Of a stretch of DNA of 64,000 nt, positions 37,194 to 59,645 are shown piece after piece (the stretch's first letter is position 1; each line of letters opens with the position of its first letter). Source of the stretch: an uncultured Ignavibacteria bacterium (lineage in GTDB: Bacteria; Zixibacteria; MSB-5A5; DSPP01); NCBI GenBank assembly GCA_964607165.1, contig CAZSIT010000003.1, positions 78,384-142,383 of the forward strand, given 5' to 3'. The translations under genes were made by a program, and so were the position numbers. The notes beneath the pieces are model-generated. The model searched no databases and had not been told where the DNA came from. It saw only the letters and a list, made by a program, of their open reading frames with translations.

Positions 37194-37204
37194 GAGTACA
37201 AGTG

Positions 37205-43320: not shown

Positions 43321-46300
43321 ATGAGGACGATTGTAACGATAGTAACCCTTCTTTTGGCTCCAGGGGCTTGGGCCGGGGAATATGATGATGTTGAGATTGT
43401 ACGGATGGATGATAGAGGAATAGTATTTGAGTATCGGCCGGTTGATGTTCGATTGGAATTATCGGGAGCAGCGCGTGCAAGCGATGGAGGCAGCGCCCGG
43501 CACGGCAATCTTAAATGTTTGTTTATCGACAATTGTGCCCGCACGGCGGGAGAAGGAAATTTTGATTTGCCGGTGAGAGTTGTGCTATTGGGAATTCCAG
43601 CAGATGCAAAGCCGGAAGTGAATGCTTGGGTCGATGGAGAAACTATAGTTTCAGGAGGGAGTGCCGCTGTTATTGAACAAAGTCTTCCAGGGCTTGGACA
43701 ATCGGCGTCGGAGTTTGCTTTAAAAGAAAAATCCGAGGTTGAGAAACGTGTAGCCATTGAAAATCCTTTTTGGATTGGAAACCAGCGGGTTTTAAGGATA
43801 AAGGTTTTTCCGGCGAATTATGATATTTCGACAAAGCAGTACCGTGTGGCTGGGAAATTACAGGTAGAGGTTAGATTCAACTCGTCGGGTCACCTGGCTT
43901 CAAGTTTGACGGCCAATGCTTGGGACAAAGTTTTGAAAAAGGGGTTGTTGAATTATGAGCAAGCAAAAGAATTCCGCACCGAACCGCAGGAAAGTGGGAA
44001 GCTGGCAAAAGCTATAGCGTTTTCCTCTCCTTTTGATAGTTCAACTAACTGGGTGAAGCTAACTTTTCAGGAGAACGGTATTTACAAAATTGACCGTGCG
44101 ATGCTTTCGGCTGCCGGCGTTCCAGTTTCAACCATTGGCCCACAAACATTTCGAATCTTTTCTATGGGCGGGAGAGCATTACCGGCTTTCAACAATGTAC
44201 CGAGACCGGCTTGGCAGGAGCATTCTATTGAGGTTACGGGGGAACAGGATGGAATTTTTGATACGGGAGATGAAATCCATTTCTATGGTTGGGCGGTAGT
44301 GGGGTGGGATTACGATACTCTTTCCGCAACTTTCAAGTTTGTCAAAAACAATTACACTACGAGTCAAGTGTTCTGGTTAACCTGGGGAGGGAGTTTTGGC
44401 AATGCTCCTTTAAGAATAGCCAGATCTTTCGTTGTGGGGAGTGGATCTCCGGTTACTTCTTTCCCCGCCCATTATAGGTTTGAACAGGACCGATTTTTGG
44501 CAGTAGATAGATTTTCTGAAATCAACGATTATTACACCTGGTACGGCGGGAAAGGAAATTCGCAAACTTATTTTTTTAATTTGCCTGGTTTGGTATCAAA
44601 TCCTGATACAATAATAGTTGGGCATCTCTCCGGCGGGGTTTCTTTGTTGGTTAATAATTCATTTGCGACTACCAATAATCCGATTTTGCAGCCGGCAGCA
44701 TTCATTACATCTGCTTTAAAAGCAGGTTTGAATAGAGTTGATTTGGGAGTCACGACCAATGGCAGCGGGTTAAATCATTTTGATTATCTGGAGATTTTTT
44801 ACAATCGGCTGCCGGTCTATACCCCTCCGTTTATGGAGTTCGAGACGCCGAATATCTCGGGGCTGGTTGAATTTCAGATTAGCAGCACTCCCGTAAATTT
44901 TGTGTGCTGGGGTATAAGTAATCGCTTTAGGCCGGGAGTTGTGCAAGCGACACGAAATTCTTCGGGTGTTTTGTCGTTGGTCGATGATGCTTCCATTAAA
45001 CGATCCTACATACTTACTTCTATAGCTGACTTTAAGCGGCCCACCCTTTCCCGGGAAAGCCCGGTTGACTTGATGACCGGGCCGAATCAAGGGGAGTTTG
45101 TCCTTATCGCTCCTACCTTGTTTCAGCCAGCGCTTTCGATTTATGCAGCCCATCGGGCAGACTCTAGCGGGGTAACAGTTAAGCAAGTTGACGTGGAGCA
45201 GATTTACAACAACTTTTCGGGCGGGCTGCCGGACCCGGTAGCCATTCGAGATTTCTTGAAATTTGCACGGGAGAATTGGGGAAATCCCAAACCGCGCTAC
45301 GTGCTTTTGGCTGGAGACGGGACCTACGATTTCCGAAATATAGAAGGGACGGGAGCGGTCAACTACGTGCCACCGTTTATCGTGGATCAGGCGTTTGATG
45401 CTTCCAGTAATTCGGATGAAGGGTATCTATATTTTGGCAACCCCGGCTTTCTGGATTCGGCCGACCAAACTTTGGATATGACGGTTGCCCGCTGGCCGGT
45501 GAAAAACGTTTCCGAATTGCAGGTGGTGGCCGATAAAATTATGCGCTATGAAAGTTCGCCCGAATATGGGGTATGGAGGAATCGCGTCACGCTGGTGGCT
45601 GATGATGAATTTGGAACGTTTGACAACGAAGGGTTTCATACCGCCAGCAGTGAGCAATTGGCCTCTCGGTACACTCCCAGGCGGTTCGATCAGAAAAAAA
45701 TCTATCTGTTCGATTATCCTTTTAACGGCCTTAGAGAAAAACCGGAAGCGGAACAAGCGATTTTGCGGGCTTGGAACGAAGGTCAATTGCTTATCAATTA
45801 CGTAGGTCACGGCAGCCCGAATCTTTGGGCACATGAGCATGTTTTAAAGCGGGAAGAAGATGTGCCGCAGATGGTCAATAGCAACCGGTTGCCATTAGTT
45901 TATGCTGCGTCCTGCAATATCAATTCGTTCGTTGAGCCTCTGTCGGAGGGGATGGGAGAGGATTTATTAAAAAGCCCGGCTGGCGGGGCGGTGGCTGTCA
46001 TTGCCGCCGTGCGGGTTGTTTTTGCCGGTCCGAATAACGATCTAAACGATAGTACTTTTAATTTGCTGTTAGGTTCTGACTCTCTTTCTATCGGCGAAGC
46101 CTTTTATTTGGCTAAACTGCTGCGGCAGCCGAACGGTAACGATCGCCGCTTTCTGTTGTTTGGCGACCCGGCCATGCATTTGGCCAGACCGACCTACAAC
46201 ATCTGCCTGACCGCTCCGGATACGCTTTCGGCTTTGACCGTCGCTACCGTATCGGGCGAAGTAACCGCCGGCAAAGTAACCGATACCGCTTGTACCGCCG

Positions 46301-47247
46301 GTGTTCCCTTGAGCAGCTTTAATGGAACAGTCAAGCTCTCGGTTTTTGACGGCCTGCGCTCCAAGTCCCATCCGTTAGTCCCCACGCCGCTGTCGTATTC
46401 CCTGCCGGGGAATATGATTTATCGAGGAGATGCTCAGGCAACGAATGGCCGGTTCAGCTTTTCGTTTATAGTTCCCAAAGATATAAGTTACGGTTCAAAA
46501 ACTGGGAAGATTTCGGTGTATGCCTTTGACGCAACCGGTGATGCGGTTGGATTCAAAGATTCAATGGCTTTGGGCGGCTCGGTGGCCGTTACCACCGATA
46601 CCGTTGGGCCAAAGATTTCTGTGACCGTCGTAGGCGGCGGGTCGGTGGGCGCCGGAGACGTCATTTCGGTTGGAGTCAATCTGTCGGTGAAATTGGAAGA
46701 TTCCTCCGGCATCAACATTACCGGCGAGCCGGCACATTCAATAACGGCGGAGTTTGATTTTCCATCCGGGCTAACGCTGGACATAACAAGCAGTTTTCGC
46801 TATGAGCAACGGTCGTTTTCAAGCGGGGAGGCCTTTTTCACCGTGCCGGCGGTTTCTACGGGAAGACATGCGTTGAGGATAAAAGCCTGGGATTCGGCTA
46901 ATAATTCCTCGGTTTTGGAGTTTCCGATTGAAGTAGCCGCCTCCGGAAAACTTTTGCTTTCGAATGTCTTGAACTATCCCAACCCGATGAAGGATAAAAC
47001 GAATTTTTGCTATACCCTTTCGGCGCCGGCGGATGAGGTGATGATTGAAATCTTTTCGGAAGCGGGAAGGTCAATAAAGACCATCCGTTCCGCTTCGGTG
47101 AAAGCCGGATACAATTTTCAGACCGAATGGAACGGCCGAGATAACGACGGAGACGTTGTGGCATCCGGGATTTACCTTTACAAAGTTTGGGCCAGACAGG
47201 CTTCGAAAGAAGCGGAAGAGTTTGGCAAAATCGTGGTAATGAGATGA
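43321..47247 (+). CDS. porU: C25 (gingipain-family) cysteine peptidase with T9SS-type CTD; candidate T9SS sortase PorU
   Basis: Signal peptide. ..RYVLLAGDGTYDFRN.., ..LINYVGHGSPNLWAHE.. (His) and ..LVYAASCNINSF.. (Cys). CTD is ..LNYPNPMKDKTNFCYTL..SGIYLYKVWAR..KIVVMR. About 1300 aa and directly upstream of a PorV-like gene, as porU-porV are in Porphyromonas. Confidence 0.6.
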   Translation: MRTIVTIVTLLLAPGAWAGEYDDVEIVRMDDRGIVFEYRPVDVRLELSGAARASDGGSARHGNLKCLFIDNCARTAGEGNFDLPVRVVLLGIPADAKPEVNAWVDGETIVSGGSAAVIEQSLPGLGQSASEFALKEKSEVEKRVAIENPFWIGNQRVLRIKVFPANYDISTKQYRVAGKLQVEVRFNSSGHLASSLTANAWDKVLKKGLLNYEQAKEFRTEPQESGKLAKAIAFSSPFDSSTNWVKLTFQENGIYKIDRAMLSAAGVPVSTIGPQTFRIFSMGGRALPAFNNVPRPAWQEHSIEVTGEQDGIFDTGDEIHFYGWAVVGWDYDTLSATFKFVKNNYTTSQVFWLTWGGSFGNAPLRIARSFVVGSGSPVTSFPAHYRFEQDRFLAVDRFSEINDYYTWYGGKGNSQTYFFNLPGLVSNPDTIIVGHLSGGVSLLVNNSFATTNNPILQPAAFITSALKAGLNRVDLGVTTNGSGLNHFDYLEIFYNRLPVYTPPFMEFETPNISGLVEFQISSTPVNFVCWGISNRFRPGVVQATRNSSGVLSLVDDASIKRSYILTSIADFKRPTLSRESPVDLMTGPNQGEFVLIAPTLFQPALSIYAAHRADSSGVTVKQVDVEQIYNNFSGGLPDPVAIRDFLKFARENWGNPKPRYVLLAGDGTYDFRNIEGTGAVNYVPPFIVDQAFDASSNSDEGYLYFGNPGFLDSADQTLDMTVARWPVKNVSELQVVADKIMRYESSPEYGVWRNRVTLVADDEFGTFDNEGFHTASSEQLASRYTPRRFDQKKIYLFDYPFNGLREKPEAEQAILRAWNEGQLLINYVGHGSPNLWAHEHVLKREEDVPQMVNSNRLPLVYAASCNINSFVEPLSEGMGEDLLKSPAGGAVAVIAAVRVVFAGPNNDLNDSTFNLLLGSDSLSIGEAFYLAKLLRQPNGNDRRFLLFGDPAMHLARPTYNICLTAPDTLSALTVATVSGEVTAGKVTDTACTAGVPLSSFNGTVKLSVFDGLRSKSHPLVPTPLSYSLPGNMIYRGDAQATNGRFSFSFIVPKDISYGSKTGKISVYAFDATGDAVGFKDSMALGGSVAVTTDTVGPKISVTVVGGGSVGAGDVISVGVNLSVKLEDSSGINITGEPAHSITAEFDFPSGLTLDITSSFRYEQRSFSSGEAFFTVPAVSTGRHALRIKAWDSANNSSVLEFPIEVAASGKLLLSNVLNYPNPMKDKTNFCYTLSAPADEVMIEIFSEAGRSIKTIRSASVKAGYNFQTEWNGRDNDGDVVASGIYLYKVWARQASKEAEEFGKIVVMR

Positions 47248-47281
47248 AGAAAATACAACTAACCATAATAGGGAGGTTTTA

Positions 47282-49867
47282 ATGAAAAGGGTGCTTTTCG
47301 TAGGGGCCGCTTTGGCCATTTTGTTTGCAGCCGTCCAGCCGGTTTCGGCTTCGTTGCGGCAGGCGGGAGCTCTGTCTTTGCGCATTTCCACCGGAACGCG
47401 GCCGGCTGGAATGGGTGATGCTTTTGTCGGTTTGGCGGATGATTACACGGCCACGCATTTTAATCCCGCCGGATTGGGACGGTATCCGATGAGTCCGGAC
47501 TGGATTACCCATTCGCTTCCGCCCGGGAAGGGGCCGATTCGCCAGATTGCCCTTTTGCGCAACAACGTGCCGGAACAAAATTACAAGCGCTACGACATCT
47601 GGGTTTTGGCTGGTAACGAGCTTTTGCACTGGAACGGCGTTGAGTGGGTGAGCGGGACCTATCACCAGGTGGAAGGCAGCGAGACTTTGGAGGGAATTGT
47701 TTCGCGCTGGATGAAAAATGTTTCCGACGAAAGGCTGCGAGCAGTCACCCGCCAGGTGGCGGAGGCCAACAGTCGGATTACCTATGCCGAGCTGGCCGGC
47801 CTTAAGGACAAAGTGCTGACCGCTTTGCCTCCGGATTTTGTTGATTCGGAAAAAGAGAAGTTAGCAGTTGCCTTTGATAATCTTTTGGAGCGGTTTGACA
47901 AAGGATTGGGTGTGCCGGCCGGGTTGATTTCATTGAAAACAATTGCCGTACGAGCGCTGGAAGATGAAAGAATTTCGGTGCAGGAAGCCTCTAATATCTT
48001 ATCTGTTTTAGGAAAAGCTTCTGGTAATCTCTTGCCGGATAAGGTCTTTTTGTGGTACGGTTTGGCGTTTTCCGATATGATTGAATCAATTGCTTCGGAT
48101 GAACGGGCCTTGTGGGTGGCTACGCAAACCGGCGTTGCGCGCTATGACGGCGAAAGCTGGAACAGTTTCGGCTCGGAGGAGGGGTTGCCGGAAGGGCCTT
48201 TTAGATACATGGCTGTGAGCCCGGCAAAAACCGCCTGGCTGGCGAATCAAAAAGGACTTTTCTCTTTTACCGGCGGACACTGGACGCTATCCGAAATGGC
48301 TCCCGGGGTCTCGTTCCCAGAAGGTGGTCCAAAACGGATGGTTTTTTCGGGAGAGCGGGCTGGCTGGGCAATTTGTGACAACGACCTTTTCTTTTATGAC
48401 GGAAAAAAGTGGGACAATCGTTTTGAGGTGAGCGCGGGTGTTGCGCCGGAGCTGGAAAAGCTGGTTAACCGCTTTGCGCCGGGTGTGGATTCGGCTCGAA
48501 TGGCTGACGCCATTTCAGAGATTAGAACTATCAACAACTTCGGTGATTCGGCTATTGCGCCGGGGAAGAAAATATTGGTGCCCTTTAAGCTCGCATTCCG
48601 TGGAAGGCTGACCTCTGTTGCTGTTGACCCGTTGGAAGCGGTTTGGATTGGAACGGAGACCGGGCTTTTGCGCTTTGCCGAAGGGGAGTTCAACGTATTC
48701 GGATACGCCCCCTTTACAGTTACAAAAGAAAAGACACTTTTGGAGGTAGCCAAGCGCTATACCGGCGATTCCAATCCACAACGGTTGACGCGCTGGATAG
48801 AGCGGGTGAGAAATTACAATCGGTTAACTTCCGACGAAGTGGCGCCTGGCCAGAAGATCTGGTTATACCGGGGGCCAGCGGGGAGTAAAATCAGCTCAAT
48901 TTATGCCAATACCGAAGTTGTGTGGGTTGGCTCGGAGTTCGGAATTCTGAAATTTAACAAAATAGAATTTGAACGGTACGAACCGGCGGGGTTGGCGCGA
49001 ACTCCTACGGTGGACGTGCAGTTTAAAGGAGCAGATGGCTTTTTCGCCACCGCTAATCAGGTAACCGTTTATGCCCGGCCGTGGAGGCAATTTGGTTTAA
49101 TGCATTCCAACTGGCTGCCGGATCTGGCGGAAGATTTGTTCTTTGATTCACCGGCTTACGTGCAGCATTTTTCCGGCATCGGCACCTTCGGACTGCATAT
49201 GACCTTTCTCTCTTTGGGTCGCAACACCAGAATTAGCGAAACCGGGGATACCCTCGGTTTTTTCGACAGCTTTGAGGGTTCAATTGGCCTTTCTTATGGG
49301 ACGCGTTTGTCCAATTCACTGGCGGGAGGGTTGACCGGTAAATTTATTTTGAGCAAGCTGGCCACGGTCGGCACGGCGCGGGAACTTGGAAAAGGGCAGG
49401 GAACCTCATTTGCCGTGGATTTTGGATTGCTATACCAGACTCCCATTAAAAGGCTGACATTGGGTTCGGCTTTGACCAATATCGGGCCGAGGCTCCAGTT
49501 TATTGACGCTGATCAGGCCGACCCTCTGCCGCGAAATTTGGCCGTTGGATTCTCCTACAAAATCTTGGAATCGGCTTATAACAAGCTGACCTTGTTAACG
49601 GATTTCAACCGGGATCTGGTCAGTCTGAAAACAGACCGGGGATTTTTCAAAACCTCAATCGAAAATTTTGGGATTGAGTACTGGTACGGTTCGTATTTTG
49701 CCGGCCGCGCCGGTTACGTGTATGACCCGGACGGTCAATTGAAGTATTTGACTTTGGGCACCAGCTTACAATATCGGAATTTCCGGTTTGACCTCGCCTA
49801 CATTCCTTCTTCCAAAAATTTAGCGCTGGCCAATACCTTGCGTTTAGCTTTAATTGGCAAGTTTTAA
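47282..49867 (+). CDS. porV: PorV/PorQ-family outer-membrane barrel carrying a ~550-aa insertion (propeller-like and LysM-like segments)
   Basis: N-terminus is ..ALSLRISTGTRPAGMGDAFVGLADDYTATHFNPAGLG... The C-terminal ~240 aa form a barrel ending ..RLALIGKF. The middle has repeated [FY]xGxxW segments (RYDGESWNSF, FTGGHWT, FYDGKKWDN) and ..APGQKIWLY.. / ..APGKKILVP.. LysM-like ends. Confidence 0.6.
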   Translation: MKRVLFVGAALAILFAAVQPVSASLRQAGALSLRISTGTRPAGMGDAFVGLADDYTATHFNPAGLGRYPMSPDWITHSLPPGKGPIRQIALLRNNVPEQNYKRYDIWVLAGNELLHWNGVEWVSGTYHQVEGSETLEGIVSRWMKNVSDERLRAVTRQVAEANSRITYAELAGLKDKVLTALPPDFVDSEKEKLAVAFDNLLERFDKGLGVPAGLISLKTIAVRALEDERISVQEASNILSVLGKASGNLLPDKVFLWYGLAFSDMIESIASDERALWVATQTGVARYDGESWNSFGSEEGLPEGPFRYMAVSPAKTAWLANQKGLFSFTGGHWTLSEMAPGVSFPEGGPKRMVFSGERAGWAICDNDLFFYDGKKWDNRFEVSAGVAPELEKLVNRFAPGVDSARMADAISEIRTINNFGDSAIAPGKKILVPFKLAFRGRLTSVAVDPLEAVWIGTETGLLRFAEGEFNVFGYAPFTVTKEKTLLEVAKRYTGDSNPQRLTRWIERVRNYNRLTSDEVAPGQKIWLYRGPAGSKISSIYANTEVVWVGSEFGILKFNKIEFERYEPAGLARTPTVDVQFKGADGFFATANQVTVYARPWRQFGLMHSNWLPDLAEDLFFDSPAYVQHFSGIGTFGLHMTFLSLGRNTRISETGDTLGFFDSFEGSIGLSYGTRLSNSLAGGLTGKFILSKLATVGTARELGKGQGTSFAVDFGLLYQTPIKRLTLGSALTNIGPRLQFIDADQADPLPRNLAVGFSYKILESAYNKLTLLTDFNRDLVSLKTDRGFFKTSIENFGIEYWYGSYFAGRAGYVYDPDGQLKYLTLGTSLQYRNFRFDLAYIPSSKNLALANTLRLALIGKF

Positions 49868-49874
49868 GAGGAGG

Positions 49875-52800
49875 ATGTTGATACTTACGCAAAAAGCCGG
49901 CCGATTCATTTTGAGTATCGGCTGGCTTTTGCTTCTTGTGGTGAGCGGAGTCGAACTATTTTTTTCGGCAGCCTGGGGCGCCGACTGGCCGTTAAAAAAA
50001 GTTAAGCTTGAAAAGCCGGAAGCCCCTCCTGCTGTGGGATTTCATAGTTCGGTTTCGAAGAAAAATCTTTTGAAATTGACGCGGCTGTCTCCATCTGGAT
50101 TGCCTTTCGCCCGGCTTTCGACAGCTGCGCCAGTGGAGACCTTAAAGGTTTTGGCTCTTCGGGTGGAGTTTCAGAAAGAAGTGCCGGATGACCCAAGCAC
50201 CACCGGCCTCGGGGTCTTTGACCGACGCACCAAGCAGCAGTTTTTGGCCGCCGAGGGGCATCTGGTTGACCCGGCACCGCATAATAAAAAGTATTTTGAG
50301 AGCCATCTGGAAGCCTTGGACCGGTTCTATCAAGCCGTTTCCAACGGGAGAGTGAAGGTAATCGGAGATGTCTGGCCGCCCGTGGACTCGGAGGTCTATC
50401 AGCTCCCATATCCTTTGGCCTACTATGATTTGGCAGGCTGTAACTCTAATAGTTGTGTCGTTGGGCAAATTTCCCGTTTTTTTGTGGATGCTGTGCGGCT
50501 TGCCGACATGCTCTCGCCCCAGATTGATTTTTCAAACTATCAATCGCTGGTGATCTTCCATGCCGGGAGTAGCCGGCAGGATGACATTTTCGACAACACC
50601 CGCAATGATTTTTTTACCGGATTTCTGCGGCTGGGATTTGACAGTTTGCTTGTCGACAGCAGCCGTGATACCATCACCGAAGGGTTAATTCTCCCCGAAT
50701 CTCCTTCGCAGGACAATCGAATTGTAGCGTTGAATGCGACGTTCGCGCACGAATTTGGGCATCAGCTCGGTTTGGTTGACATCTACAATACCAGAACGAA
50801 TGTGACCCAGGTCGGAGATTTCTCTTTGATGGATAATAACGGCGCCGATATTGCAGCTGAATTGGATTTCACCAGTTTGGGTGGCCGTATTGTTTTGGCC
50901 TCCCAGCTTTTGCCGGTCTATCCGGATGCCTGGTCGCGCGCTTTTTTGGGTTTTTTGGACACGCTGGTTGTCACGCGAGGCCCGGATAGTTTGTCGCTTC
51001 TGGCAGCCGAACTTCAGCACACAGGTATCGAAGCAGTAAAAATCCCGATATCCGAGCAGGAATATTTCTTAATCGAAAACCGCTCGGTCGATTTTGATTC
51101 CTTTCCCGGTTCAGCTTTGAAAGTTGATGATTCCACCAACGTGGTCTTGGGCCCGGCGCGGCCGCAGGGTGGCAGTTCGGTTTTTACGGATGAATATGAT
51201 GCACTGTTGCCCGGCTCCGGCATACTCATCTGGCACGTGGATGAAGGTGTGGCATTTCTGGATGACGACGGAGATGGTTTCAACAATTTTGAAAGCAATA
51301 CGGTTAATACAAATCCGCAGCGAAGGTTTTTAGAACTTAAGGAAGCGGACGGTTTGGTCGATTTCGGGGGGAATTACTTCACCGGCTTCGGCCTTTCCGA
51401 GGATATGTACCGGGCGGGGAACAACTCCCGTTTTACGCCGACTTCCAATCCCTCCTCGCGCAATTCTTTCGGCGGGCAGACCGGTGTCTCGGTAACTGGT
51501 ATTACCCCTGCCGACACGGTGATGAATTTTGACGTCAATTCCGGCTATTTGCTTTCCGGCTGGCCGCAGTTTACCGGGCGGTTTTCGGTCGACCGCCCCC
51601 CCGTGTTGGGGGATTTAGATGGGGATGGTAAGGAAGAGGTTTTGGCTTTCTCCGGGCCCTTTATTCTAGCCTGGAGGCAGAACGGCACGGCTTTCATTCC
51701 GAACAATTTTACAGACACTAGCAGCGCTCTAAACGGCGATAGTCTGGAGTTTCCCATCGCTATTTTCAGCTTTGACCCAACCGACACCGCCCGGGATTCA
51801 GGGTTTACTTCCGGGCCGGTGGGAGCGGACCTTCTGGGAGATTCCCTAAAAGAGGTTTTTGCCGGTTCCCGCGACGGTTTGATTTGGGGGTTTGCTGCGG
51901 AGGATTTGAACGGCGACAGCTTAGCCGATTTTCTCCCCAGTTTCCCCGTTGACTTGAACAACGGAGCGGTTACCGTCATTTTAGTTGGAAAAATTAATCC
52001 TTTCAATTCTTTGGCCATCTTTGCCGGAACGGCTGCCGGAAAGGGATTTTTGATTTCGCCGGCTGGGACGGTTCTGGATTCCAATCTTTTCCGAGGGAGA
52101 ATTGTTGGGACGGCAGTGGATACCACCGGCAATCTTTTTGTGACTTCAGCAAAAAAAGATTCTGTCTTCGTTTATCGGGGCTTTCATCCAATTTGGGCGG
52201 ATACAATTCTGGATAGTCTGATTTCCGAGCCGGTGGTAGCTGAAAGCGACAGCGCGCTTCTGCTTGCCTTTGCCACCAGTGGAGGGAAACTATATCTGTA
52301 CGACCGGAATGACAACCTGGCGCCCCGATTTCCAGTTGATTTGGGGACCGGCGCAGCGCCTCAACCGGTTTGGGTGGTCAATCCGACCGGCGGGGAGCCG
52401 ATAATTTTGCTGGCCTTTGATAATAAAATCGTGGCTTATCAAACAAACGGTATTCTTGTGGAAGATTTTCCGAAATCTATCGACAGGCAGAGGCCTGCTA
52501 ACGGTTCGCAGTTGCCGTTGGCCGGTTTAGATAGGGCAGCCTTAAGTAGGCTTTCAAGGTATGTCCCTCGCAGTTCCGTTGAAGCCAGGTCTATTCCACC
52601 ACAGGGCCCTGAAATCGTTTTGGCGGTTGGGTCGGATAACGGCAATATTTATTTTCCTCAAGCAAGTGAGAGAGAAGCCTCTTTCGCTCTTGGAACGGGA
52701 GCGGAAATTTTGGCACCGCTGGCCGCCACAACCGTAGATAGTTTGTCATCAACCATTCGGGGCGCAAAAGTTTTTGCCCGCAGCACGGATGGTTTTATGT

Positions 52801-53210
52801 ATGGTTATCAGATTGACTATTTGGAGTTTGCTTCGAGAGCGAGTTGGACCCAGGTGCGGCACGATTTTGCCGGCTCCAACTTTTTGCCAAAAGTGAAGGT
52901 CCAAGGGATTGGCGGGGGAGAGTTAATTGCCGAAAAATCGTTTTACAACTATCCTAATCCGGCAACCGGAGGGAAAACTTACCTGCGTTATCGATTGACT
53001 GCGCAGTCAAAAGCTACCTTGACGGTTTATGATATGGCTGGCAATCAGATACAGAAGCCCAGAGATGATGTCCCCACGCGGATCGGTGATGACAACCAAG
53101 TGGAAATTGATTGCAGCGATTGGGCGGCGGGCGTGTATCTTTGCCGTCTGGAAGTGAATGGCGCAGGCAAAAAAGAGGTTGTATTTTGTAAGATGGCGGT
53201 TGTAAAATAG
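49875..53210 (+). CDS. M6-like metalloprotease with FG-GAP/VCBS-like repeats and T9SS-type CTD
   Basis: ATG 49875 is preceded by GAGGAGG. Signal/TM region present. ..AHEFGHQLGLVDIYN.., ..GSGILIWHVDE.., ..GDLDGDGKEEVL... CTD is ..FYNYPNPATGGKTYLRYRL..TVYDMAGNQI..AGVYLCRLEV..KMAVVK. Confidence 0.85.
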   Translation: MLILTQKAGRFILSIGWLLLLVVSGVELFFSAAWGADWPLKKVKLEKPEAPPAVGFHSSVSKKNLLKLTRLSPSGLPFARLSTAAPVETLKVLALRVEFQKEVPDDPSTTGLGVFDRRTKQQFLAAEGHLVDPAPHNKKYFESHLEALDRFYQAVSNGRVKVIGDVWPPVDSEVYQLPYPLAYYDLAGCNSNSCVVGQISRFFVDAVRLADMLSPQIDFSNYQSLVIFHAGSSRQDDIFDNTRNDFFTGFLRLGFDSLLVDSSRDTITEGLILPESPSQDNRIVALNATFAHEFGHQLGLVDIYNTRTNVTQVGDFSLMDNNGADIAAELDFTSLGGRIVLASQLLPVYPDAWSRAFLGFLDTLVVTRGPDSLSLLAAELQHTGIEAVKIPISEQEYFLIENRSVDFDSFPGSALKVDDSTNVVLGPARPQGGSSVFTDEYDALLPGSGILIWHVDEGVAFLDDDGDGFNNFESNTVNTNPQRRFLELKEADGLVDFGGNYFTGFGLSEDMYRAGNNSRFTPTSNPSSRNSFGGQTGVSVTGITPADTVMNFDVNSGYLLSGWPQFTGRFSVDRPPVLGDLDGDGKEEVLAFSGPFILAWRQNGTAFIPNNFTDTSSALNGDSLEFPIAIFSFDPTDTARDSGFTSGPVGADLLGDSLKEVFAGSRDGLIWGFAAEDLNGDSLADFLPSFPVDLNNGAVTVILVGKINPFNSLAIFAGTAAGKGFLISPAGTVLDSNLFRGRIVGTAVDTTGNLFVTSAKKDSVFVYRGFHPIWADTILDSLISEPVVAESDSALLLAFATSGGKLYLYDRNDNLAPRFPVDLGTGAAPQPVWVVNPTGGEPIILLAFDNKIVAYQTNGILVEDFPKSIDRQRPANGSQLPLAGLDRAALSRLSRYVPRSSVEARSIPPQGPEIVLAVGSDNGNIYFPQASEREASFALGTGAEILAPLAATTVDSLSSTIRGAKVFARSTDGFMYGYQIDYLEFASRASWTQVRHDFAGSNFLPKVKVQGIGGGELIAEKSFYNYPNPATGGKTYLRYRLTAQSKATLTVYDMAGNQIQKPRDDVPTRIGDDNQVEIDCSDWAAGVYLCRLEVNGAGKKEVVFCKMAVVK

Positions 53211-53227
53211 ACGGAAAGGTTTAATAG

Positions 53228-54151
53228 ATGATTGCGAAGATTACAGAGATTGCGAAAATTGGAAAAGTTTTATTGCTGGTCATAGCCGTTTTGCCGGGAG
53301 TTTTTGGGTCGGCGGTAGCAGAGAGTTCACCAATATCGATTGAACAGCTTTATCGACACCAAACAATGTATTCAGATGGTAAGCTCCTCCAGTTTACTCA
53401 AAACGACAGACAGGAAATCGCTCCAGCCATTACTGAAAAAGGTCAAAAACAAAAATCGGTGGCGATGGCGGCGGGGCTTTCGCTTTTGGTTCCCGGAGCG
53501 GGGCAATTTTACGTCGGCGAGAAAGTACGTGCCGCCCCCTTTTTCCTGGCTGACATAGGCGGTTGGGTTACCTACTTTGGTTTCCGAAGCCAGGGTAAGA
53601 GGCGGGAACGGGATTACCAGGCTTTTGCTGATATGCATTGGGACACCAGCCGGTATTTTGCTTTTCTGGATACAGCCCTCGGGATTTCTTCCCGTTCGGA
53701 CTTTGACCCGGTTACCCGAAATTACGACAGCCACGATTACTTTCCAGATTCAGTTGCCAACTTGGTGATAGATACAATTAAAAACCCTAATTTTGTTTTC
53801 GCTCATCATATTCCGGCTAAAGAGGGCGGTCGGTTGGAAAAAAATTTCGAGTATTATGAAAACTTTGGAAAATACGACCAGTTTTTTGCCGGGTGGGACG
53901 ATTACAGTACCGGTGTCAACAGAAGCACCTATAGAAGGATGCGCGCGAAGGCCAACGATTCATTTTCCAAATCCAAGATAGGCATTATTGTTTCTATGGC
54001 CGACCGGCTGGTGGCGGCCTTTGACGCCGCTCTGGCGGCCAAGCGATTTAACAAAAAAATAAACAAGACCAACGAAATCGAGATTGGTTTTCGAATGACT
54101 CGTTACAACGGCGCGCGGATGCCGAAACTTTTGGCCACTTATAAGTTTTAA
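53228..54151 (+). CDS. Hypothetical membrane protein, paralog A (LLVPGAGQFYVG motif)
   Basis: Signal/TM region. ..AAGLSLLVPGAGQFYVGEKVRAAPFFLADIGGWVTYFGF.. and C-terminal ..RLVAAFDAALAAKRFNKK... Resembles DUF5683/TM2-like small-helix proteins. Confidence 0.7.
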   Translation: MIAKITEIAKIGKVLLLVIAVLPGVFGSAVAESSPISIEQLYRHQTMYSDGKLLQFTQNDRQEIAPAITEKGQKQKSVAMAAGLSLLVPGAGQFYVGEKVRAAPFFLADIGGWVTYFGFRSQGKRRERDYQAFADMHWDTSRYFAFLDTALGISSRSDFDPVTRNYDSHDYFPDSVANLVIDTIKNPNFVFAHHIPAKEGGRLEKNFEYYENFGKYDQFFAGWDDYSTGVNRSTYRRMRAKANDSFSKSKIGIIVSMADRLVAAFDAALAAKRFNKKINKTNEIEIGFRMTRYNGARMPKLLATYKF

Positions 54152-54152
54152 A

Positions 54153-54902
54153 ATGAGAAGGCTGGCATTGTTTTTTCTTGTTTTTTTGATTTCCCCGGGT
54201 GCTTTTTCATTGGCGGCGGGGTCGGATAAGTCTTTGATTTTTCAAAATGCTTATCCTATTCAAGCCGAGCTTGCTTCTTTTAAGCTGGACACGCTTTCGG
54301 AAAAGGAGCCCACAAATTTATCCAAGGAAAAGGGTGCTATTTCGACCTGGAAGGCGGTTGGCCTCTCGGTGTTGTTACCGGGAAGCGGGCACTGGTATTT
54401 GGGAAACCGAAATCGGGCAAAAGTTTTCTTTGGCATCGAGGCGGCAGGATGGGGAAGTTTTGCCGGGTTTTTGTGGTTTTCGAATCAGCGGGAAAAAGAT
54501 TATCAAAATTATGCCGTAGCGCGCGCGGGTGTTTATGCGCTTGGCAAGGATGAACAGTTTTGGCGGAGTCTGACTTTTTACGAAAACCGGGACGAGTATA
54601 ACAAGCTTGGGCCGATTACCAGCGCAAACAACCCCTTTTACCCCGAAGACGCCTCGTACAACTGGCAGTGGGATTCTCCCGCCTCCCAGGCGCAATACCG
54701 GCTTTTGCGGAATTCGAGCAAAACGGCTCATCGGCGGGCTATTTTTACTTTGGCTTTGCTGGGGGTTGAGCGATTAGTCGCCGCTGCAGATGCCTATCGA
54801 ATTGCTAAAAAGATTAACTCCAAGAATAAAGCCGATAACTTGGAAGTCTATTTTGAGCCGGAGCCAACCGGAGGACGGTTGGTTCTTATACGCAGTTTTT
54901 GA
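54153..54902 (+). CDS. Hypothetical membrane protein, paralog B (LLPGSGHWYLG motif)
   Basis: ..AVGLSVLLPGSGHWYLGNRNRAKVFFGIEAAGWGSFAGF.. and ..RLVAAADAYRIAKKINSK.. parallel the preceding gene. 1-nt gap to it. Confidence 0.7.
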   Translation: MRRLALFFLVFLISPGAFSLAAGSDKSLIFQNAYPIQAELASFKLDTLSEKEPTNLSKEKGAISTWKAVGLSVLLPGSGHWYLGNRNRAKVFFGIEAAGWGSFAGFLWFSNQREKDYQNYAVARAGVYALGKDEQFWRSLTFYENRDEYNKLGPITSANNPFYPEDASYNWQWDSPASQAQYRLLRNSSKTAHRRAIFTLALLGVERLVAAADAYRIAKKINSKNKADNLEVYFEPEPTGGRLVLIRSF

Positions 54903-54904
54903 GA

Positions 54905-55837
54905 ATGAAAAACCTCTCTTCGATCGCAAAAAGAAGAGGGGCAATGCTGTTGCTGCTCATTTTTCACTTTTCTTCCGTTTTATCTCAACCAAATGGCTCA
55001 AAACCCAATTTCCAGATTCGGAAAGTTGCGACCATTCAGCTTGATTTTGGAAAGGAAAAAGTATCCGGGCCGACCGATTTTAGAGTCGACCTAAACGGCA
55101 ATATTTATTTGCTGAACTACTCTTCAGGGAAGCTTTTCAGGATGGATTCAACCGGCAAATTTTTGCGCAGCGTGGCAGTTGCCAGTACTTTTTACCCAAC
55201 CGAGGTTGGCTTTACAATAAGCCGGGAGGGGGACCTTTTCATTGCCGATTCAAAGGAAAAGTTTATCTATCGTTATGATGCCGGGTTGGACTTAATTGGC
55301 AAACTACGATTGGTCGGCTCCGACCAATTTGAAAACATCTATGATTTTTTAGCCGTTTCCTGGGGAGATTTGCTTTTGAGTTGCGGGAAAAAGCCGGAGT
55401 TGTGGCGGCTGGAACCTGCCGGTAAAAGCTTCACTTTTGAAGAGGTCGGCAGTCACGAGCCGCAGTTTTACTTTTCTCTTTCAGAAATCCCAGGAAAAAA
55501 ATTGGTCGCTTATGACAATTTTAACAAGGCTCTGGTGTTTCTGGATCGGTTTGGGAATCGGGTGAAAGAAGTTCCGTCCCGACCGCTTATGAAACTGGGG
55601 GGCACGGACCTCGGCTTAATTTGCACCTCCTGGTCAGATGACAGCCTTACCATTATGGATTCCAGCGGTTATGCCGCCGTTAGCTTCACGCCGCGGCAAC
55701 TGGCTTTGGGATTTGAAAAGGTTAAAAACTTTGTGACCGTAGGAAAAAGAGTATATCTGTTGGGGGATTCGCTTAAAATTGAGGTTTTAGAGCTCTTAGA
55801 AGCCAAACCTGAAGATTCAATCCCTGGAAAAAAATGA
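54905..55837 (+). CDS. Hypothetical secreted protein, NHL/beta-propeller-like
   Basis: Signal peptide ..GAMLLLLIFHFSSVLSQP. Repeated ..G.I(Y/F)..D.. strands (NGNIYLLN, EGDLFIADS). ATG 54905 lies just after the preceding stop. Confidence 0.65.
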   Translation: MKNLSSIAKRRGAMLLLLIFHFSSVLSQPNGSKPNFQIRKVATIQLDFGKEKVSGPTDFRVDLNGNIYLLNYSSGKLFRMDSTGKFLRSVAVASTFYPTEVGFTISREGDLFIADSKEKFIYRYDAGLDLIGKLRLVGSDQFENIYDFLAVSWGDLLLSCGKKPELWRLEPAGKSFTFEEVGSHEPQFYFSLSEIPGKKLVAYDNFNKALVFLDRFGNRVKEVPSRPLMKLGGTDLGLICTSWSDDSLTIMDSSGYAAVSFTPRQLALGFEKVKNFVTVGKRVYLLGDSLKIEVLELLEAKPEDSIPGKK

Positions 55838-56373
55838 TTGAATTAGAGCCGCTGAAACGGAGCGACCTGCCGCTTTTGGCCAGCTGGGGCGGGCAGTCAG
55901 AGTTTTTGATTCAATGGGCGGGGCCGATTTTTGACCATCCTTTGGATGAAAAACAACTTGAAAAATATTTCGACGCCATGGAGGCAAGTCCAGACGCGAG
56001 AAAAATGTACAAAGCGGTCCGGGTTGGTTCGGAAGAAATGGTCGGTCACATAGAACTGGATAGAATCAATCCCAAGACCGGTTCGGCCATCGTGGAGCAC
56101 GTTATCGTAGGCGATCCGGCTATGCGGGGGAAAGGGGTTGGCGGGTTGATGATGAAAAAGATTTTGGAAGTTGGATTTGGGCAGTTGGGGCTGCACCGGA
56201 TTTCCCTTAATGTTTACGATTTCAACCATTCCGCTATCGCCTGCTATGAAAAAGCCGGTTTCATCAAAGAAGGGCTTTTGCGCGAAGCGGTTCGGGTGGG
56301 AAATCAATACTGGAGCGTTTTCTTGATGAGCGTTTTGGAGACGGAGTGGAGGAGCTTACAGGCGGCAGGGTGA
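55834..56373 (+). CDS. GNAT-family N-acetyltransferase (RimJ/RimL-like)
   Basis: ..GHIELDRINPKTGSAIVEHVIVGDPAMRGKGVGGLMMKKILEVGF..LHRISLNVYDFNHSAIACYEKAGF... ATGA overlap upstream. Confidence 0.88.
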   Translation: MIELEPLKRSDLPLLASWGGQSEFLIQWAGPIFDHPLDEKQLEKYFDAMEASPDARKMYKAVRVGSEEMVGHIELDRINPKTGSAIVEHVIVGDPAMRGKGVGGLMMKKILEVGFGQLGLHRISLNVYDFNHSAIACYEKAGFIKEGLLREAVRVGNQYWSVFLMSVLETEWRSLQAAG

Positions 56374-59300: not shown

Positions 59301-59645
59301 TTCAACCGCACCGTTACCACTTCTTGCGGGGGCCGATTTTATCAGGATAAAGAGCGAATTAGTGGAAAACAAGCCCGTTTGGTTTCCGCTTCTCCCAAGC
59401 TAATTATCTCACTTCCCGAAAAAGGGAGGGCGGAAGCTGGAATTTCTGTCGCCTCTGTTTCCGGCAATCCTGTTTCCTTTGAACAGGCGGAAGGAAATTT
59501 GAAGGGATTGAATTGGGACTATAACTTGACTTTTGATTACCGTTTGGGGTCAAAAGTTTCGGCTTCCTTATCGTATGTTGCCAGCCAGAGGCCGGTTTTG
59601 GGTAAAAGCCAGCGAGCCAACACCCATTTGAGCTATCTTTTCTAA
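56373..59645 (+). CDS. Large (~1090 aa) hypothetical outer-membrane protein
   Basis: ATG 56373 gives signal MLAEVKIRGFAILLVVALSCFALVHS. Beta-rich and Gly/Ser/Tyr-rich throughout. C-terminus ..NTHLSYLF has the OMP-type terminal Phe. TGATG and TAATG overlaps with the neighbours. Confidence 0.7.
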   Translation: MLAEVKIRGFAILLVVALSCFALVHSPEAKPAFFFESDLNIENYQDAVGFFSVAQKTTDYQIDYESGFISGGATNLLGGGSGRTPILSLNLLPRYQLRSLPVSGNENQVSTLTTSPTLPKIRQPTVSKEELFISGRKSFGFSYSPSGEAGFQQSLALALKGKLSEKVGFAANLSDRNLPSGSGSFSKRIDQFDQLGLAFDFPQGSLSLGDVFFKSNSGNLLNFERKISGLGFAFNDSRESLGVAFGSGPGEFRTVELSGQEGKQGPYSIASSRIFIIPGSEKVYLDGELLTSGREADYEMDSERGALTFSPRHPISNFSRIRLEYEFQSGPYAKNISAARSATGLFNNKFKFRAGYLGSKDKLDSPLMKSLSSEERERLASTGADSSEAVRDGAVFVGAGKGDYSAFLDSTGNRQYRYVGSSKGDYSVSFSLARGGPGDYRYLGGGIYEFVGTGRGSYLPILYLPVPTSQTGANLGIEFAPTNLATFLELSLGETNRNLFSSQGGVKSSGTAFLGGISWQNSDEQSLKVEAKFRGREADYQFLGNKDESDFAYRWNLSLSEERLGQTQGVVSMTSKWSWGQSWLNLGGLSLSNQKQRGLGESEFLLSPLTWLAFKTETQVGGSGSRSGFYRTKNSVTLRWGNLALSSAIERERAYPYLGSNFEIRQSLGQRLEYKTYFLEASLGNRDGYGNSINSAGTSSRNWGRLSRFNAIRLGSKPVSWKGKFTSEGNLGWRQTTLESKKINRLYLFLKQSYQEGGWRVNYSQELMPIQSPNEIYSYLDVGRGNGNYRYENGGYVSDPYGNFTLVSEAAGETLAVSRTRQNWEVVWEPYRNFASTPTFWSQVSYRALFSFDGNFSKTMGAVNIFPVFGIKNSRRHELEFRQTASYLPISRKLRIDFSWTEKSSKRSYSAFSASLPLSSTGTLRSERRVELNSSLYGQKITQNYSLGYLKKNSGSDFWLPYQIQGGDIKCEWLYSFNRTVTTSCGGRFYQDKERISGKQARLVSASPKLIISLPEKGRAEAGISVASVSGNPVSFEQAEGNLKGLNWDYNLTFDYRLGSKVSASLSYVASQRPVLGKSQRANTHLSYLF

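What the first reader, a model, noticed from the sequence alone, without database searches (positions are those of the whole stretch)
47282..49867. PorV-like barrel interrupted by a ~550-aa insertion with propeller-like and LysM-like segments
The first ~70 aa (..TGTRPAGMGDAFVGLADDYTATHFNPAGLG..) and the last ~240 aa (..GTSFAVDFGLLYQ...YLTLGTSLQYRNFRFDLAYIP...RLALIGKF) look like the N- and C-terminal parts of a PorV/PorQ-type barrel, which is normally ~400 aa in total. Between them lie about 550 aa. This stretch has repeated [FY]xGxxW strands (LLHWNGVEW, ARYDGESWNSF, FTGGHWT, FYDGKKWDN, LRFAEGEF, LKFNKIEF) reminiscent of two-component-regulator propeller repeats. It also has two segments ending ..APGKKILVP.. 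and ..APGQKIWLY.. that resemble LysM termini. A shuttle protein with a built-in ligand- or peptidoglycan-binding domain would be unusual.
Basis: partly seen in the sequence, partly recalled or inferred. Interest (0 to 1): 0.65.

Follow-up and report, generated by a model that had tools for sequence, protein, structure and literature searches.

The report
PorV barrel with periplasmic propeller–LysM insert
This gene encodes the outer-membrane PorV partner of the type IX secretion sortase in Zixibacteria, but with a 530-residue propeller-plus-LysM module spliced in on the periplasmic side, which suggests that PorV here is tied to the cell wall or to periplasmic machinery instead of moving freely as a shuttle.

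Summary
ORF 47282..49867 (+, 861 aa) is a PorV/PorQ-family protein (NF033709, 199.5 bits against a cut-off of 90). It lies directly after the PorU sortase gene. A family profile matches solved Flavobacterium PorV in two pieces: residues 1-65 to PorV 1-64, and 593-861 to PorV 67-395. About 530 residues are therefore inserted at one point.

AlphaFold (pLDDT 81; insert alone 89) corrects one detail. All 14 barrel strands lie in 603-860, so the barrel is not split. The N-terminal piece is the FadL-type tail with its NPA motif. The insert sits between tail and strand 1, which is the periplasmic side.

The insert is a Reg_prop-type beta-propeller. It is closest to the Bacteroides hybrid two-component sensors, and PorZ also matches. 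Nested in it are a helical bundle and two LysM-like units; family profiles hit LysM structures at E 3.5e-12 and 8.6e-8.

All 80 best-matching species genomes carry the architecture, nearly all Zixibacteria. PorU is always upstream and an M6-like T9SS cargo gene downstream where the flank allows.

Most likely function (inferred): a peptidoglycan tether or docking platform for PorV-PorU. It is a new variant of a known kind, and I found no description of it in the literature.

The parts
43321..47247 (+). porU: type IX secretion sortase (C25 peptidase with a C-terminal T9SS sorting domain), immediately upstream in the same operon
   Evidence: NCBIfam T9SS_sortase NF033707 scores 680.9 bits against a cut-off of 420. 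Pfam Peptidase_C25 gives E 1.7e-84. A PorU homologue lies directly upstream of the PorV homologue in all 82 related loci examined.
47270..47276 (+). Shine-Dalgarno-like AGGGAGG, 5 nt before the ATG
   Evidence: Read directly from the sequence.
47282..49867 (+). Gene for the 861-aa PorV-family protein with the inserted module
   Evidence: ORF listing. PorV_fam NF033709 scores 199.5 bits against a cut-off of 90. Foldseek top hits are F. johnsoniae PorV chains 8gl6_F and 6h3i_F at E 1e-14 and 1.3e-12, TM 0.60 normalised to the target.
47282..47350 (+). Signal peptide, aa 1-23 (MKRVLFVGAALAILFAAVQPVSA | SLRQ); no lipobox cysteine
   Evidence: Inferred from the sequence: basic N-terminus, hydrophobic core, VSA cleavage-type site. 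All 81 family members begin the same way. No signal-peptide predictor was available.
47351..47485 (+). FadL/PorV-type N-terminal tail with the GxRxxGMG...DD...NPAGL motif, aa 24-68
   Evidence: Aligns to F. johnsoniae PorV residues 1-64. It is the most conserved region of the family, with mean top-residue frequency 0.86 and an invariant length of 44-45 aa. Invariant residues are L33, G38, R40, M44, G45, D54, N61, P62, G64 and L65. AlphaFold placed it with low confidence, pLDDT below 55.
47486..49087 (+). Inserted periplasmic module, aa 69-602: a Reg_prop-type beta-propeller of about 7-8 blades carrying three nested sub-insertions
   Evidence: AlphaFold gives pLDDT about 90 in the full model, and 89.4 with pTM 0.86 when the insert is folded alone. 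Foldseek top hits are the periplasmic sensors BT4663, BT3049 and BT4673 at E about 1e-9, with PorZ (5m11) at E 1.8e-7. The family profile against BT4663 gives E 6.4e-24. Pfam Reg_prop is found in 11 of 19 relatives.
47687..48031 (+). Six-helix sub-insertion, aa 136-250, nested in an early blade; function unknown and the most variable part
   Evidence: DSSP of the model shows helices 136-245. Length across the family runs from 4 to 145 aa, and conservation is 0.36. It is absent in P0016 and duplicated in P0002. No Pfam hit.
48416..48589 (+). LysM-like unit 1, aa 379-436, with beta-alpha-alpha-beta topology
   Evidence: The family profile A3 hits LytE LysM repeats at E 3.5e-12, the 4uz2 LysM at 4.7e-7 and Ecp6 at 7.9e-4. 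DSSP shows E380-384, H390-398, H404-418, E430-434. In the window copy the GDxL signature is degenerate (AGVAPEL).
48704..48874 (+). LysM-like unit 2, aa 475-531, with beta-alpha-alpha-beta topology
   Evidence: The family profile A4 hits the 4uz2 LysM at E 8.6e-8, LytE at 1.5e-7 and the AtlA LysM (2mkx) at 6.7e-4. Pfam LysM scores 17.7 bits at 506-528, below its cut-off, and NCBIfam YneA gives E 2e-8 at 475-526. DSSP shows E475-479, H486-494, H499-513, E525-529. In the 78-sequence sub-alignment A4 of this unit, the LysM Asn (N513) is invariant and the Gly of the GQ motif (G523) is conserved in at least 90%.
49088..49864 (+). Complete 14-stranded PorV/FadL-type outer-membrane barrel, aa 603-861, ending in the aromatic residue F
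   Evidence: The model has 14 strands between 603 and 860. Connections alternate 8,3,5,4,13,5,17,3,14,3,6,2,12 residues, which fits long outer loops and short periplasmic turns if strand 1 starts in the periplasm. The region aligns to PorV 67-395. Pfam PorV covers 603-781.
49854..53210 (+). Downstream M6-like metalloprotease with an FG-GAP-like region and a T9SS type A sorting domain. The real start is probably the ATG at 49874, after a GAGGAGG site. It is a conserved operon partner and likely cargo.
   Evidence: Por_Secre_tail scores 33.5 bits; M6dom TIGR03296 gives E 8.5e-20; T9SSA_dep_M6i scores 267 bits, below its 600 cut-off. It is present downstream in every locus with enough flank. The HEFGH motif is conserved in all 69 orthologues compared.

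Best explanation
This is the PorV orthologue of Zixibacteria. [quoted passage not shown]

Shown:
- The protein is a PorV-family member encoded in a porU - porV - M6-like-cargo operon.
- About 530 residues are inserted at one point, between the conserved N-terminal tail (NPA motif) and barrel strand 1.
- The insert is a Reg_prop-type beta-propeller with a helical bundle and two LysM-like units nested in its blades.
- The architecture is the phylum-wide norm.

Inferred from topology: strand 1 of an even-stranded barrel with a periplasmic C-terminus must begin in the periplasm, and the linkers at both ends of the insert are no more than about 5 residues. The propeller-LysM module therefore hangs directly under the periplasmic mouth of the barrel. 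The tail, as in the FadL family, would thread up into the barrel lumen.

Inferred function: the LysM units bind peptidoglycan, and the propeller offers a docking surface for periplasmic T9SS parts or glycan. PorV, and with it PorU, would then be held at a fixed envelope position and would not diffuse as a free shuttle. That would build into one polypeptide the job done in Porphyromonas by separate proteins: PorE bridging peptidoglycan to the PorP barrel, and PorK/N contacts under the attachment complex.
For: Identity:
- PorV_fam scores 199.5 bits.
- The family profile against solved PorV 6h3i_F gives E 1.6e-36 in two stretches flanking the insert.
- Foldseek's best hits are PorV chains.
- PorU is upstream in 82 of 82 loci.
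- A short canonical PorV (P0110, 321 aa) occupies the same position after PorU in another lineage.

Barrel and topology:
- 14 strands all lie in 603-860, with alternating long and short connections.
- The FadL family is characterised by an N-terminal tail that threads the barrel pore (PMC12611786).
- PorV is a FadL-family 14-stranded barrel (PMC9143113).

Insert:
- pLDDT 89.4 and pTM 0.86 when folded alone.
- Periplasmic HTCS sensor propellers are the top structural hits.
- Profile hit to BT4663 at E 6.4e-24.
- LysM profile hits at E 3.5e-12 and 8.6e-8.

Selection: region lengths are uniform across 81 sequences at 28-73% identity.

Precedents:
- A LysM domain between the signal peptide and an outer-membrane barrel binds peptidoglycan in the inverse autotransporters YeeJ and intimin (PMC5595812).
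- PorE links peptidoglycan to the PorP FadL-type barrel (PMC9143113).
- Attachment complexes sit on the periplasmic PorKN ring (PMC12365241).
Against: - Peptidoglycan binding is untested.
- The LysM signatures are partly degenerate. The window copy of unit 1 lacks GDxL, and Pfam LysM is below its cut-off in the window protein.
- I could not read model coordinates. The periplasmic position rests on strand counting and family topology, not on a membrane-oriented model.
- AlphaFold did not place the N-terminal tail confidently (pLDDT below 55), so the threading of the tail through the barrel is by homology only.
- The PorV equivalog model is not passed (151 bits against 250).
- I did not establish whether Zixibacteria also encode a short PorV paralogue or PorE, PorQ, PorZ or PorK/N homologues.
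Confidence: 0.6

Rival explanations
1. The periplasmic module is mainly a protein-protein docking platform or 'handle'. It would bind the periplasmic ring or motor-driven parts of the T9SS (GldK/N-like, PorW/SprE-like, PorM tip). The LysM-like units would be structural relics that no longer bind peptidoglycan.
For: - Propellers commonly act as scaffolds; PorE's propeller is proposed to bind PorP (PMC9143113).
- Attachment complexes contact PorKN, and energy is thought to be needed to free PorV-cargo from the translocon (PMC12365241).
- The LysM signature is degenerate in the window copy.
- Edwardsbacteria-type relatives keep an insert at the same site without detectable LysM or Reg_prop.
Against: Two LysM-like units of constant length are kept across nearly all of the 81 family sequences compared. 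In unit 2 the LysM Asn (N513) is conserved in at least 90% of those sequences and is invariant in the unit-2 sub-alignment A4, and G523 is conserved in at least 90% of the sequences in both alignments. No partner was identified here.
Confidence: 0.25
2. The module is a periplasmic sensor that gates the barrel. Binding of a glycan or muropeptide to the propeller or LysM units would move the directly attached N-terminal tail (the plug), switching PorV between closed and cargo-competent states.
For: - The closest structures are ligand-sensing periplasmic propellers of hybrid two-component systems, which bind saccharides on the propeller face (PMC5121618).
- The tail is joined to the propeller by only about 3-5 residues and is the most conserved part of the protein.
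Against: No ligand site could be examined. No evidence shows that the PorV tail acts as a regulated plug. The idea is purely an inference from the architecture.
Confidence: 0.1
3. The insert is displayed on the cell surface and works like PorZ. PorZ is a Reg_prop-type propeller that presents anionic LPS to PorU, so this protein would be a PorQ-PorZ-like fusion.
For: PorZ (5m11) is among the structural matches at E 1.8e-7. There is a weak NCBIfam PorZ hit at aa 442-467. PorZ propellers resemble BT4663 (PMC5121618).
Against: - The insert precedes strand 1 of a complete 14-stranded barrel whose C-terminus must be periplasmic, so both ends of the insert are on the periplasmic side.
- The PorQ model scores far below PorV (57.9 against 151 bits).
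- The HTCS sensors match better than PorZ does.
Confidence: 0.03
4. The long ORF is an assembly or gene-calling artefact that fuses two genes.
For: None beyond the unusual length.
Against: The same uninterrupted ORF occurs in 80 species-level genomes. These include a closed chromosome (CP070839) and multi-hundred-kb contigs. Region lengths and neighbours are conserved throughout.
Confidence: 0.01

Closest known systems
PorV (LptO) of Bacteroidota, e.g. Flavobacterium johnsoniae PorV in PDB 6H3I / 8GL6
   Same: FadL-type 14-stranded barrel, conserved N-terminal tail with the NPA motif, and a gene directly after porU. It is the best structural and profile match.
   Different: Canonical PorV is about 320-400 aa, with the tail running straight into strand 1. 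Here about 530 aa of propeller, helical bundle and two LysM units are inserted at that junction. The NCBIfam PorV equivalog cut-off is not reached (151 against 250 bits). A peptidoglycan-tethered PorV could not act as the freely moving shuttle proposed for P. gingivalis (PMC5562754, title and abstract).
Periplasmic sensor propellers of Bacteroides hybrid two-component systems (BT4663, BT3049, BT4673; Pfam Reg_prop PF07494)
   Same: Same repeat family and fold as the insert, and the same periplasmic location.
   Different: Those proteins have two tandem seven-bladed propellers plus a Y_Y_Y domain on an inner-membrane kinase. Here a single propeller is embedded in an outer-membrane barrel protein and carries nested LysM and helical insertions.
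PorE-PorP of the Porphyromonas gingivalis T9SS
   Same: A periplasmic beta-propeller plus a peptidoglycan-binding domain attached to a FadL-type 14-stranded T9SS barrel (PMC9143113).
   Different: PorE is a separate lipoprotein with TPR, WD40 and OmpA_C-like domains that binds PorP non-covalently. Here the propeller is of Reg_prop type, the wall-binding candidate is LysM, and everything is one polypeptide with a PorV-type barrel. No homology to PorE was tested.
Inverse autotransporters (intimin, YeeJ) with a periplasmic LysM before the barrel
   Same: A LysM domain lies between the signal peptide and an outer-membrane beta-barrel and binds peptidoglycan (PMC5595812).
   Different: An unrelated 12-stranded barrel with a single LysM, no propeller and no plug segment preceding the LysM.
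PorZ (PDB 5M11)
   Same: A Reg_prop-like propeller in the T9SS attachment complex; structural match at E 1.8e-7.
   Different: PorZ is a secreted surface protein with two propellers and a CTD, held by PorQ. The insert here is periplasmic, has a single propeller and is covalently part of the barrel protein.

Membership tests
PorV/PorQ family (NCBIfam NF033709; Pfam PF19572) | Score above the curated family cut-off | tested here: met
   NF033709 scores 199.5 bits against 90. PF19572 scores 48.4 bits against 27.
PorV/PorQ family (NCBIfam NF033709; Pfam PF19572) | 14-stranded FadL-type barrel resembling solved PorV | tested here: met
   The model has 14 strands in 603-860. Foldseek gives 8gl6_F at E 1e-14 with TM 0.60 normalised to the target, and FadL, TodX and TbuX at E about 1e-6.
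PorV/PorQ family (NCBIfam NF033709; Pfam PF19572) | Conserved N-terminal tail (GxRxxGxG...DD...NPA) contiguous with strand 1 | tested here: inconclusive
   The motif is present and aligns to PorV 1-64. It is separated from strand 1 by about 530 aa, and its position in the barrel was not modelled confidently.
PorV proper (NCBIfam equivalog NF033710, T9SS_OM_PorV) | Score above the equivalog cut-off | tested here: not met
   151 bits against a cut-off of 250. PorQ NF033711 scores 57.9 against 220, and PorV2 NF052325 scores 19 against 325.
PorV proper (functional orthologue) | Gene adjacent to porU in a T9SS context with type A CTD cargo | tested here: met
   PorU (NF033707, 681 bits) is upstream. 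An M6-like protein with Por_Secre_tail is downstream. The arrangement is conserved in 82 loci.
PorV proper (functional orthologue) | Binds cargo CTDs, binds PorU, and associates with the SprA/Sov translocon | not testable with these tools
   Needs biochemistry or co-structure prediction with coordinates.
Reg_prop beta-propeller (Pfam PF07494) | Pfam repeat hits above the cut-off | tested here: inconclusive
   No Reg_prop hit in the window protein, even at E up to 1. Eleven of 19 relatives hit, with a best E of 8.5e-13. The family profile against BT4663 gives E 6.4e-24.
Reg_prop beta-propeller (Pfam PF07494) | Propeller fold resembling the HTCS periplasmic sensors | tested here: met
   The insert model has pLDDT 89.4. 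The top 15 Foldseek hits are all BT4663, BT3049 or BT4673 at E 1e-9 to 5e-8. TM-scores are low (0.2-0.34) because of the nested insertions and the two-propeller targets.
LysM domain (Pfam PF01476) | Pfam score above the gathering cut-off | tested here: not met
   In the window protein the score is 17.7 bits against 20.9, for unit 2 only. Eleven of 19 relatives pass E 0.01, with a best E of 3.9e-11.
LysM domain (Pfam PF01476) | Homology of each unit to solved LysM domains, and beta-alpha-alpha-beta topology | tested here: met
   Unit 1 profile hits LytE at 3.5e-12 and 4uz2 at 4.7e-7. Unit 2 profile hits 4uz2 at 8.6e-8 and LytE at 1.5e-7. Both units show beta-alpha-alpha-beta in DSSP. Each has an extra ~9 residues between the helices.
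LysM domain (Pfam PF01476) | Binds GlcNAc-containing glycan (peptidoglycan) | not testable with these tools
   Needs a pull-down or binding assay.

The most novel reading that the evidence does not exclude
In Zixibacteria and neighbouring candidate phyla, PorV is not a diffusing shuttle. It is a stationary, mechanically coupled station. Its plug-like N-terminal tail and its barrel are both wired to a periplasmic propeller-LysM module. That module grips the cell wall or the motor-driven periplasmic ring, so that forces or ligand binding in the periplasm directly open, move or release PorV with its cargo. This would show that the shuttle model drawn from Porphyromonas is not universal. It would also provide a natural single-chain version of the barrel-to-periplasm coupling that Bacteroidota build from separate proteins.
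Probability: 0.25. Interest if true: 0.75.

Novelty: new variant of a known kind. Interest (0 to 1): 0.55.

Why it matters
PorV is central to current models of type IX secretion. In those models it collects cargo at the translocon and carries it to the PorU sortase. All mechanistic work comes from Bacteroidota, where PorV is a bare barrel.

Here a whole phylum encodes PorV with a large periplasmic propeller and two LysM units, spliced between the plug-like tail and the barrel. A related lineage carries a different insert at the same site.

This is a natural experiment on how the outer-membrane part of the system connects to the cell wall and to periplasmic machinery. It could help to test whether PorV must move. 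The tail-module-barrel order is also unusual for FadL-family proteins. Public annotation calls these proteins only "PorV/PorQ family protein" or "hypothetical", so the feature is not visible in the databases.

Tried and rejected
- Single-sequence phmmer against PDB found only chance hits to fatty-acid-binding proteins at E above 0.3. The family profile was needed.
- Pfam on the window protein alone misses Reg_prop and gives only a sub-threshold LysM hit.
I used sub-alignments of the two LysM units against PDB instead.
- The model coordinates are not exposed. I could not orient the model in a membrane or see where the N-tail was placed, so topology was argued from strand count and connection lengths.
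- Literature searches found nothing on this architecture: PorV with Zixibacteria, type IX secretion with Zixibacteria, T9SS with Zixi, PorV with LysM, and T9SS in FCB phyla.
- The PorQ-PorZ fusion idea (a surface-displayed propeller) was considered and rejected on topology and on the low PorQ score.
- Misassembly was rejected by conservation in 80 genomes.
- The conserved downstream 1099-aa outer-membrane-like protein had no Pfam, NCBIfam or PDB match. Its role stays open.
Full report
**1. What is in the sequence**

An AGGGAGG site lies 5 nt before the ATG. All quoted motifs are present at the stated relative positions.

The gene is the middle of a tight operon:
- A 1308-aa protein ends 34 nt upstream. 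It is the type IX secretion sortase PorU (NF033707, 680.9 bits against a cut-off of 420; Peptidase_C25 E 1.7e-84).
- A roughly 1110-aa M6-like metalloprotease with a T9SS type A sorting domain starts a few bases after the stop.

**2. Is it PorV-like, and is there an insertion?**

Yes on both counts.
- NCBIfam PorV_fam scores 199.5 bits (cut-off 90) in two stretches. Pfam PorV covers 603-781.
- A profile built from the protein and 18 relatives (A1) matches solved F. johnsoniae PorV (6h3i_F) at E 1.6e-36. The match is in two pieces: query 1-65 to PorV 1-64, and query 593-861 to PorV 67-395.
- So about 530 residues are inserted at one point of an otherwise collinear PorV.
- The same profile hits the periplasmic Reg_prop sensor BT4663 at E 6.4e-24, over residues 260-473.

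**3. Structure**

AlphaFold2 on A1 gave mean pLDDT 81.1 and pTM 0.77.

The barrel:
- It has 14 strands, and all of them lie in 603-860.
- The connections between strands are 8,3,5,4,13,5,17,3,14,3,6,2,12 residues. This is the usual pattern of long outer loops and short periplasmic turns, provided strand 1 starts in the periplasm.
- The chain ends in F, as outer-membrane barrels usually do.
- So the barrel is not interrupted.

The N-terminal piece:
- It is a signal peptide plus the N-terminal tail that defines the FadL family.
- PorV is a FadL-family 14-stranded barrel (PMC9143113).
- The insert lies between this tail and strand 1, with linkers of only a few residues at each end. It must therefore hang at the periplasmic mouth of the barrel.
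- AlphaFold placed the tail with low confidence (pLDDT below 55), so its threading here is inferred by homology.

Structural matches:
- Foldseek on the full model gives F. johnsoniae PorV chains first (8gl6_F at E 1e-14, 6h3i_F at 1.3e-12, TM 0.60 normalised to the target). The Bacteroides hybrid two-component sensor propellers follow, with FadL, TodX and TbuX lower down.
- Folding the insert alone (aa 69-602, alignment A5) gave pLDDT 89.4 and pTM 0.86.
- Its top 15 Foldseek hits are all BT4663, BT3049 or BT4673, at E 1e-9 to 5e-8. PorZ (5m11) is at E 1.8e-7.
- TM-scores are low (0.2-0.34). About 230 of the 534 residues are nested insertions, and the targets have two propellers.

Layout of the insert:
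- The propeller has about 7-8 blades.
- Nested in it are a six-helix bundle (136-250) and two beta-alpha-alpha-beta units (379-436 and 475-531).

**4. Are the LysM-like units real?**

- In the window protein alone the evidence is weak. Pfam LysM scores 17.7 bits against a 20.9 cut-off. NCBIfam YneA, a LysM protein, gives E 2e-8.
- At family level the evidence is clear. The unit 1 profile (A3, 49 sequences) hits the LysM repeats of LytE at E 3.5e-12 and 4uz2 at 4.7e-7. The unit 2 profile (A4, 78 sequences) hits 4uz2 at 8.6e-8, LytE at 1.5e-7 and the AtlA LysM at 6.7e-4.
- Both units carry about 9 extra residues between the helices.
- The signatures are partly degenerate. Unit 1 keeps GDxL in most relatives but not in the window copy. 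Unit 2 keeps the characteristic Asn and the Gly of the GQ motif (N513, G523).
- Homology to LysM is therefore shown. Peptidoglycan binding is inferred.

**5. Distribution**

- A search of 5.8 billion proteins found 23 relatives that carry the insert, the named ones from Zixibacteria. It also found one protein (P0024) and nine two-component-type proteins (P0025-P0033) that share only Reg_prop repeats with the query.
- A scan of one genome per species kept the best 80 loci. All match across residues 1-861 at 28-72% identity. Nearly all are Zixibacteria MAGs, including RBG-1 and a closed chromosome. Some records are labelled "uncultured Ignavibacteria", which looks like a record-label problem.
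- In all 82 loci PorU lies immediately upstream. The M6-like gene lies immediately downstream wherever the flank allows.
- In an 81-sequence alignment the sub-regions have nearly constant median lengths. Conservation is highest in the tail (0.86), then the barrel (0.64). It is lowest in the insert (0.36-0.47).
- An exhaustive HMM search of 1.84 billion cluster representatives showed three things. There are dozens of full-length clusters. There are short canonical PorVs of 321-382 aa that score highly on tail plus barrel. There are other long forms.
- One short form (P0110) sits directly after PorU in another lineage, followed by a second PorV-family paralogue.
- Long forms from Candidatus Edwardsbacteria (P0090, 824 aa) and the similar P0023 (L002) carry an insert at the same site without detectable Reg_prop or LysM. 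P0023 lies in the same PorU - PorV - M6 cluster.
- The tail/strand-1 junction is therefore a recurrent insertion site outside Bacteroidota.

**6. How it most likely works**

Shown: this is a PorV-family barrel, genetically coupled to PorU and to CTD cargo, with a periplasmic Reg_prop propeller and two LysM-like units.

Inferred: the module ties PorV-PorU to peptidoglycan, to periplasmic T9SS parts, or to both.

Precedents:
- A LysM placed between the signal peptide and an outer-membrane barrel binds peptidoglycan in YeeJ and intimin (PMC5595812).
- In Porphyromonas the lipoprotein PorE has a propeller and a peptidoglycan-binding domain, and bridges the wall to the FadL-type barrel PorP (PMC9143113).
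- The PorU/V/Q/Z attachment complex sits on the periplasmic PorKN ring (PMC12365241).

A wall-tethered PorV could not act as the mobile shuttle proposed for P. gingivalis (PMC5562754). In this phylum PorV may therefore be a fixed station.

Rivals:
- The module is chiefly a docking handle for periplasmic machinery.
- It is a ligand sensor that moves the attached tail.
- It is a surface PorZ-like device. This is excluded by topology unless the barrel model is wrong.
- It is an assembly artefact. This is excluded by conservation.

**7. Comparison with the known, and novelty**

- The protein passes the PorV/PorQ family model but not the PorV equivalog cut-off (151 against 250 bits). I file it as a PorV-family member and the probable functional orthologue, on synteny.
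- Public records call these proteins "PorV/PorQ family protein", [quoted passage not shown] or "hypothetical".
- Five literature searches found no description of a PorV with such an insert, or of type IX secretion in Zixibacteria.
- It is a new variant of a known kind. It is moderately interesting to secretion-system specialists and testable.

**8. Limits**

- Model coordinates could not be inspected.
- Peptidoglycan binding, partner binding and tail position are untested.
- The T9SS gene complement of Zixibacteria was not surveyed.

Noticed in passing
window 49854-61144; L001-L082: The conserved cluster extends well beyond the PorU-PorV-M6 trio. It continues with two paralogous small secreted proteins (53228..54151 and 54153..54902, found in 53 and 52 of 82 loci). 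Next comes a 312-aa protein (54899..55837). Then comes a 1099-aa protein with an outer-membrane-barrel-like C-terminus ...HLSYLF (56346..59645, found in 41 loci, no Pfam, NCBIfam or PDB match). Last is a 499-aa POTRA/Omp85-like protein (59645..61144). These could be further, undescribed components of the same envelope system.
   Followed up: partly
window 49854-53210 (aa 299-303 of the product): The downstream M6-like protein best matches the NCBIfam model named 'T9SS-dependent M6-like inactivated metalloprotease' (267 bits, below the 600 cut-off). However, its HExxH motif (AHEFGHQLGLxDL) is intact in all 69 orthologues compared, so it is probably an active protease.
   Followed up: yes
window 55834-56373: A GNAT acetyltransferase gene sits inside the conserved cluster in this window. 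No locus gave a phmmer hit to it, and it is not among the genes called in L001 or L002. It is probably a local insertion.
   Followed up: partly
window 23227-24843 (-), 26408-29467, 33960-37193, 37151-38947: The neighbourhood is rich in likely secreted hydrolases. These are a second M6 peptidase with a BACON-like domain, an M1-type peptidase, an S8 subtilase with a weak T9SS sorting tail, and a Big_9/dockerin protein. This fits a T9SS-dependent degradative lifestyle.
   Followed up: partly
A1/A2 alignments; L023, L025-L027, L029, L030, L034, L038, L042, L051, L069; P0002, P0012, P0016, P0019, P0020: The insert is modular within the family. The helical bundle is missing in some members (729-772 aa forms and P0016) and duplicated in P0002. 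A further ~190-aa domain sits in the first blade region of the 1046-1056 aa forms. LysM unit 1 is expanded to up to 141 aa in some lineages.
   Followed up: partly
P0090, P0104, P0114, P0142; L002 10022-12466: PorV-family proteins of Candidatus Edwardsbacteria and unnamed lineages carry a ~400-500 aa insert at the same tail/strand-1 junction, without detectable Reg_prop or LysM. P0023 (L002) lies in the same PorU-PorV-M6 cluster. The fold of that insert is unknown.
   Followed up: partly
L083 8001-10136: In another, unnamed lineage PorU is followed by a short canonical PorV (321 aa) and then a second PorV-family paralogue (323 aa). The second copy is possibly a PorQ-like partner.
   Followed up: no
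window aa 741-752 of the PorV product (nt about 49502-49537): The outer loop IDAxQADPLPRN is almost invariant across 81 sequences, yet it is the least confidently modelled part of the barrel (pLDDT below 50 at 739-746). It is a good candidate for the contact with a cargo CTD, PorU or the translocon.
   Followed up: no
L005, L007, L008, L011, L020-L023 and others (record titles): Many MAGs titled 'uncultured Ignavibacteria/Ignavibacteriales', one titled 'Acidobacteriota' and one titled 'GN15' carry the Zixibacteria-type gene cluster. The record labels probably do not reflect the true phylum.
   Followed up: no
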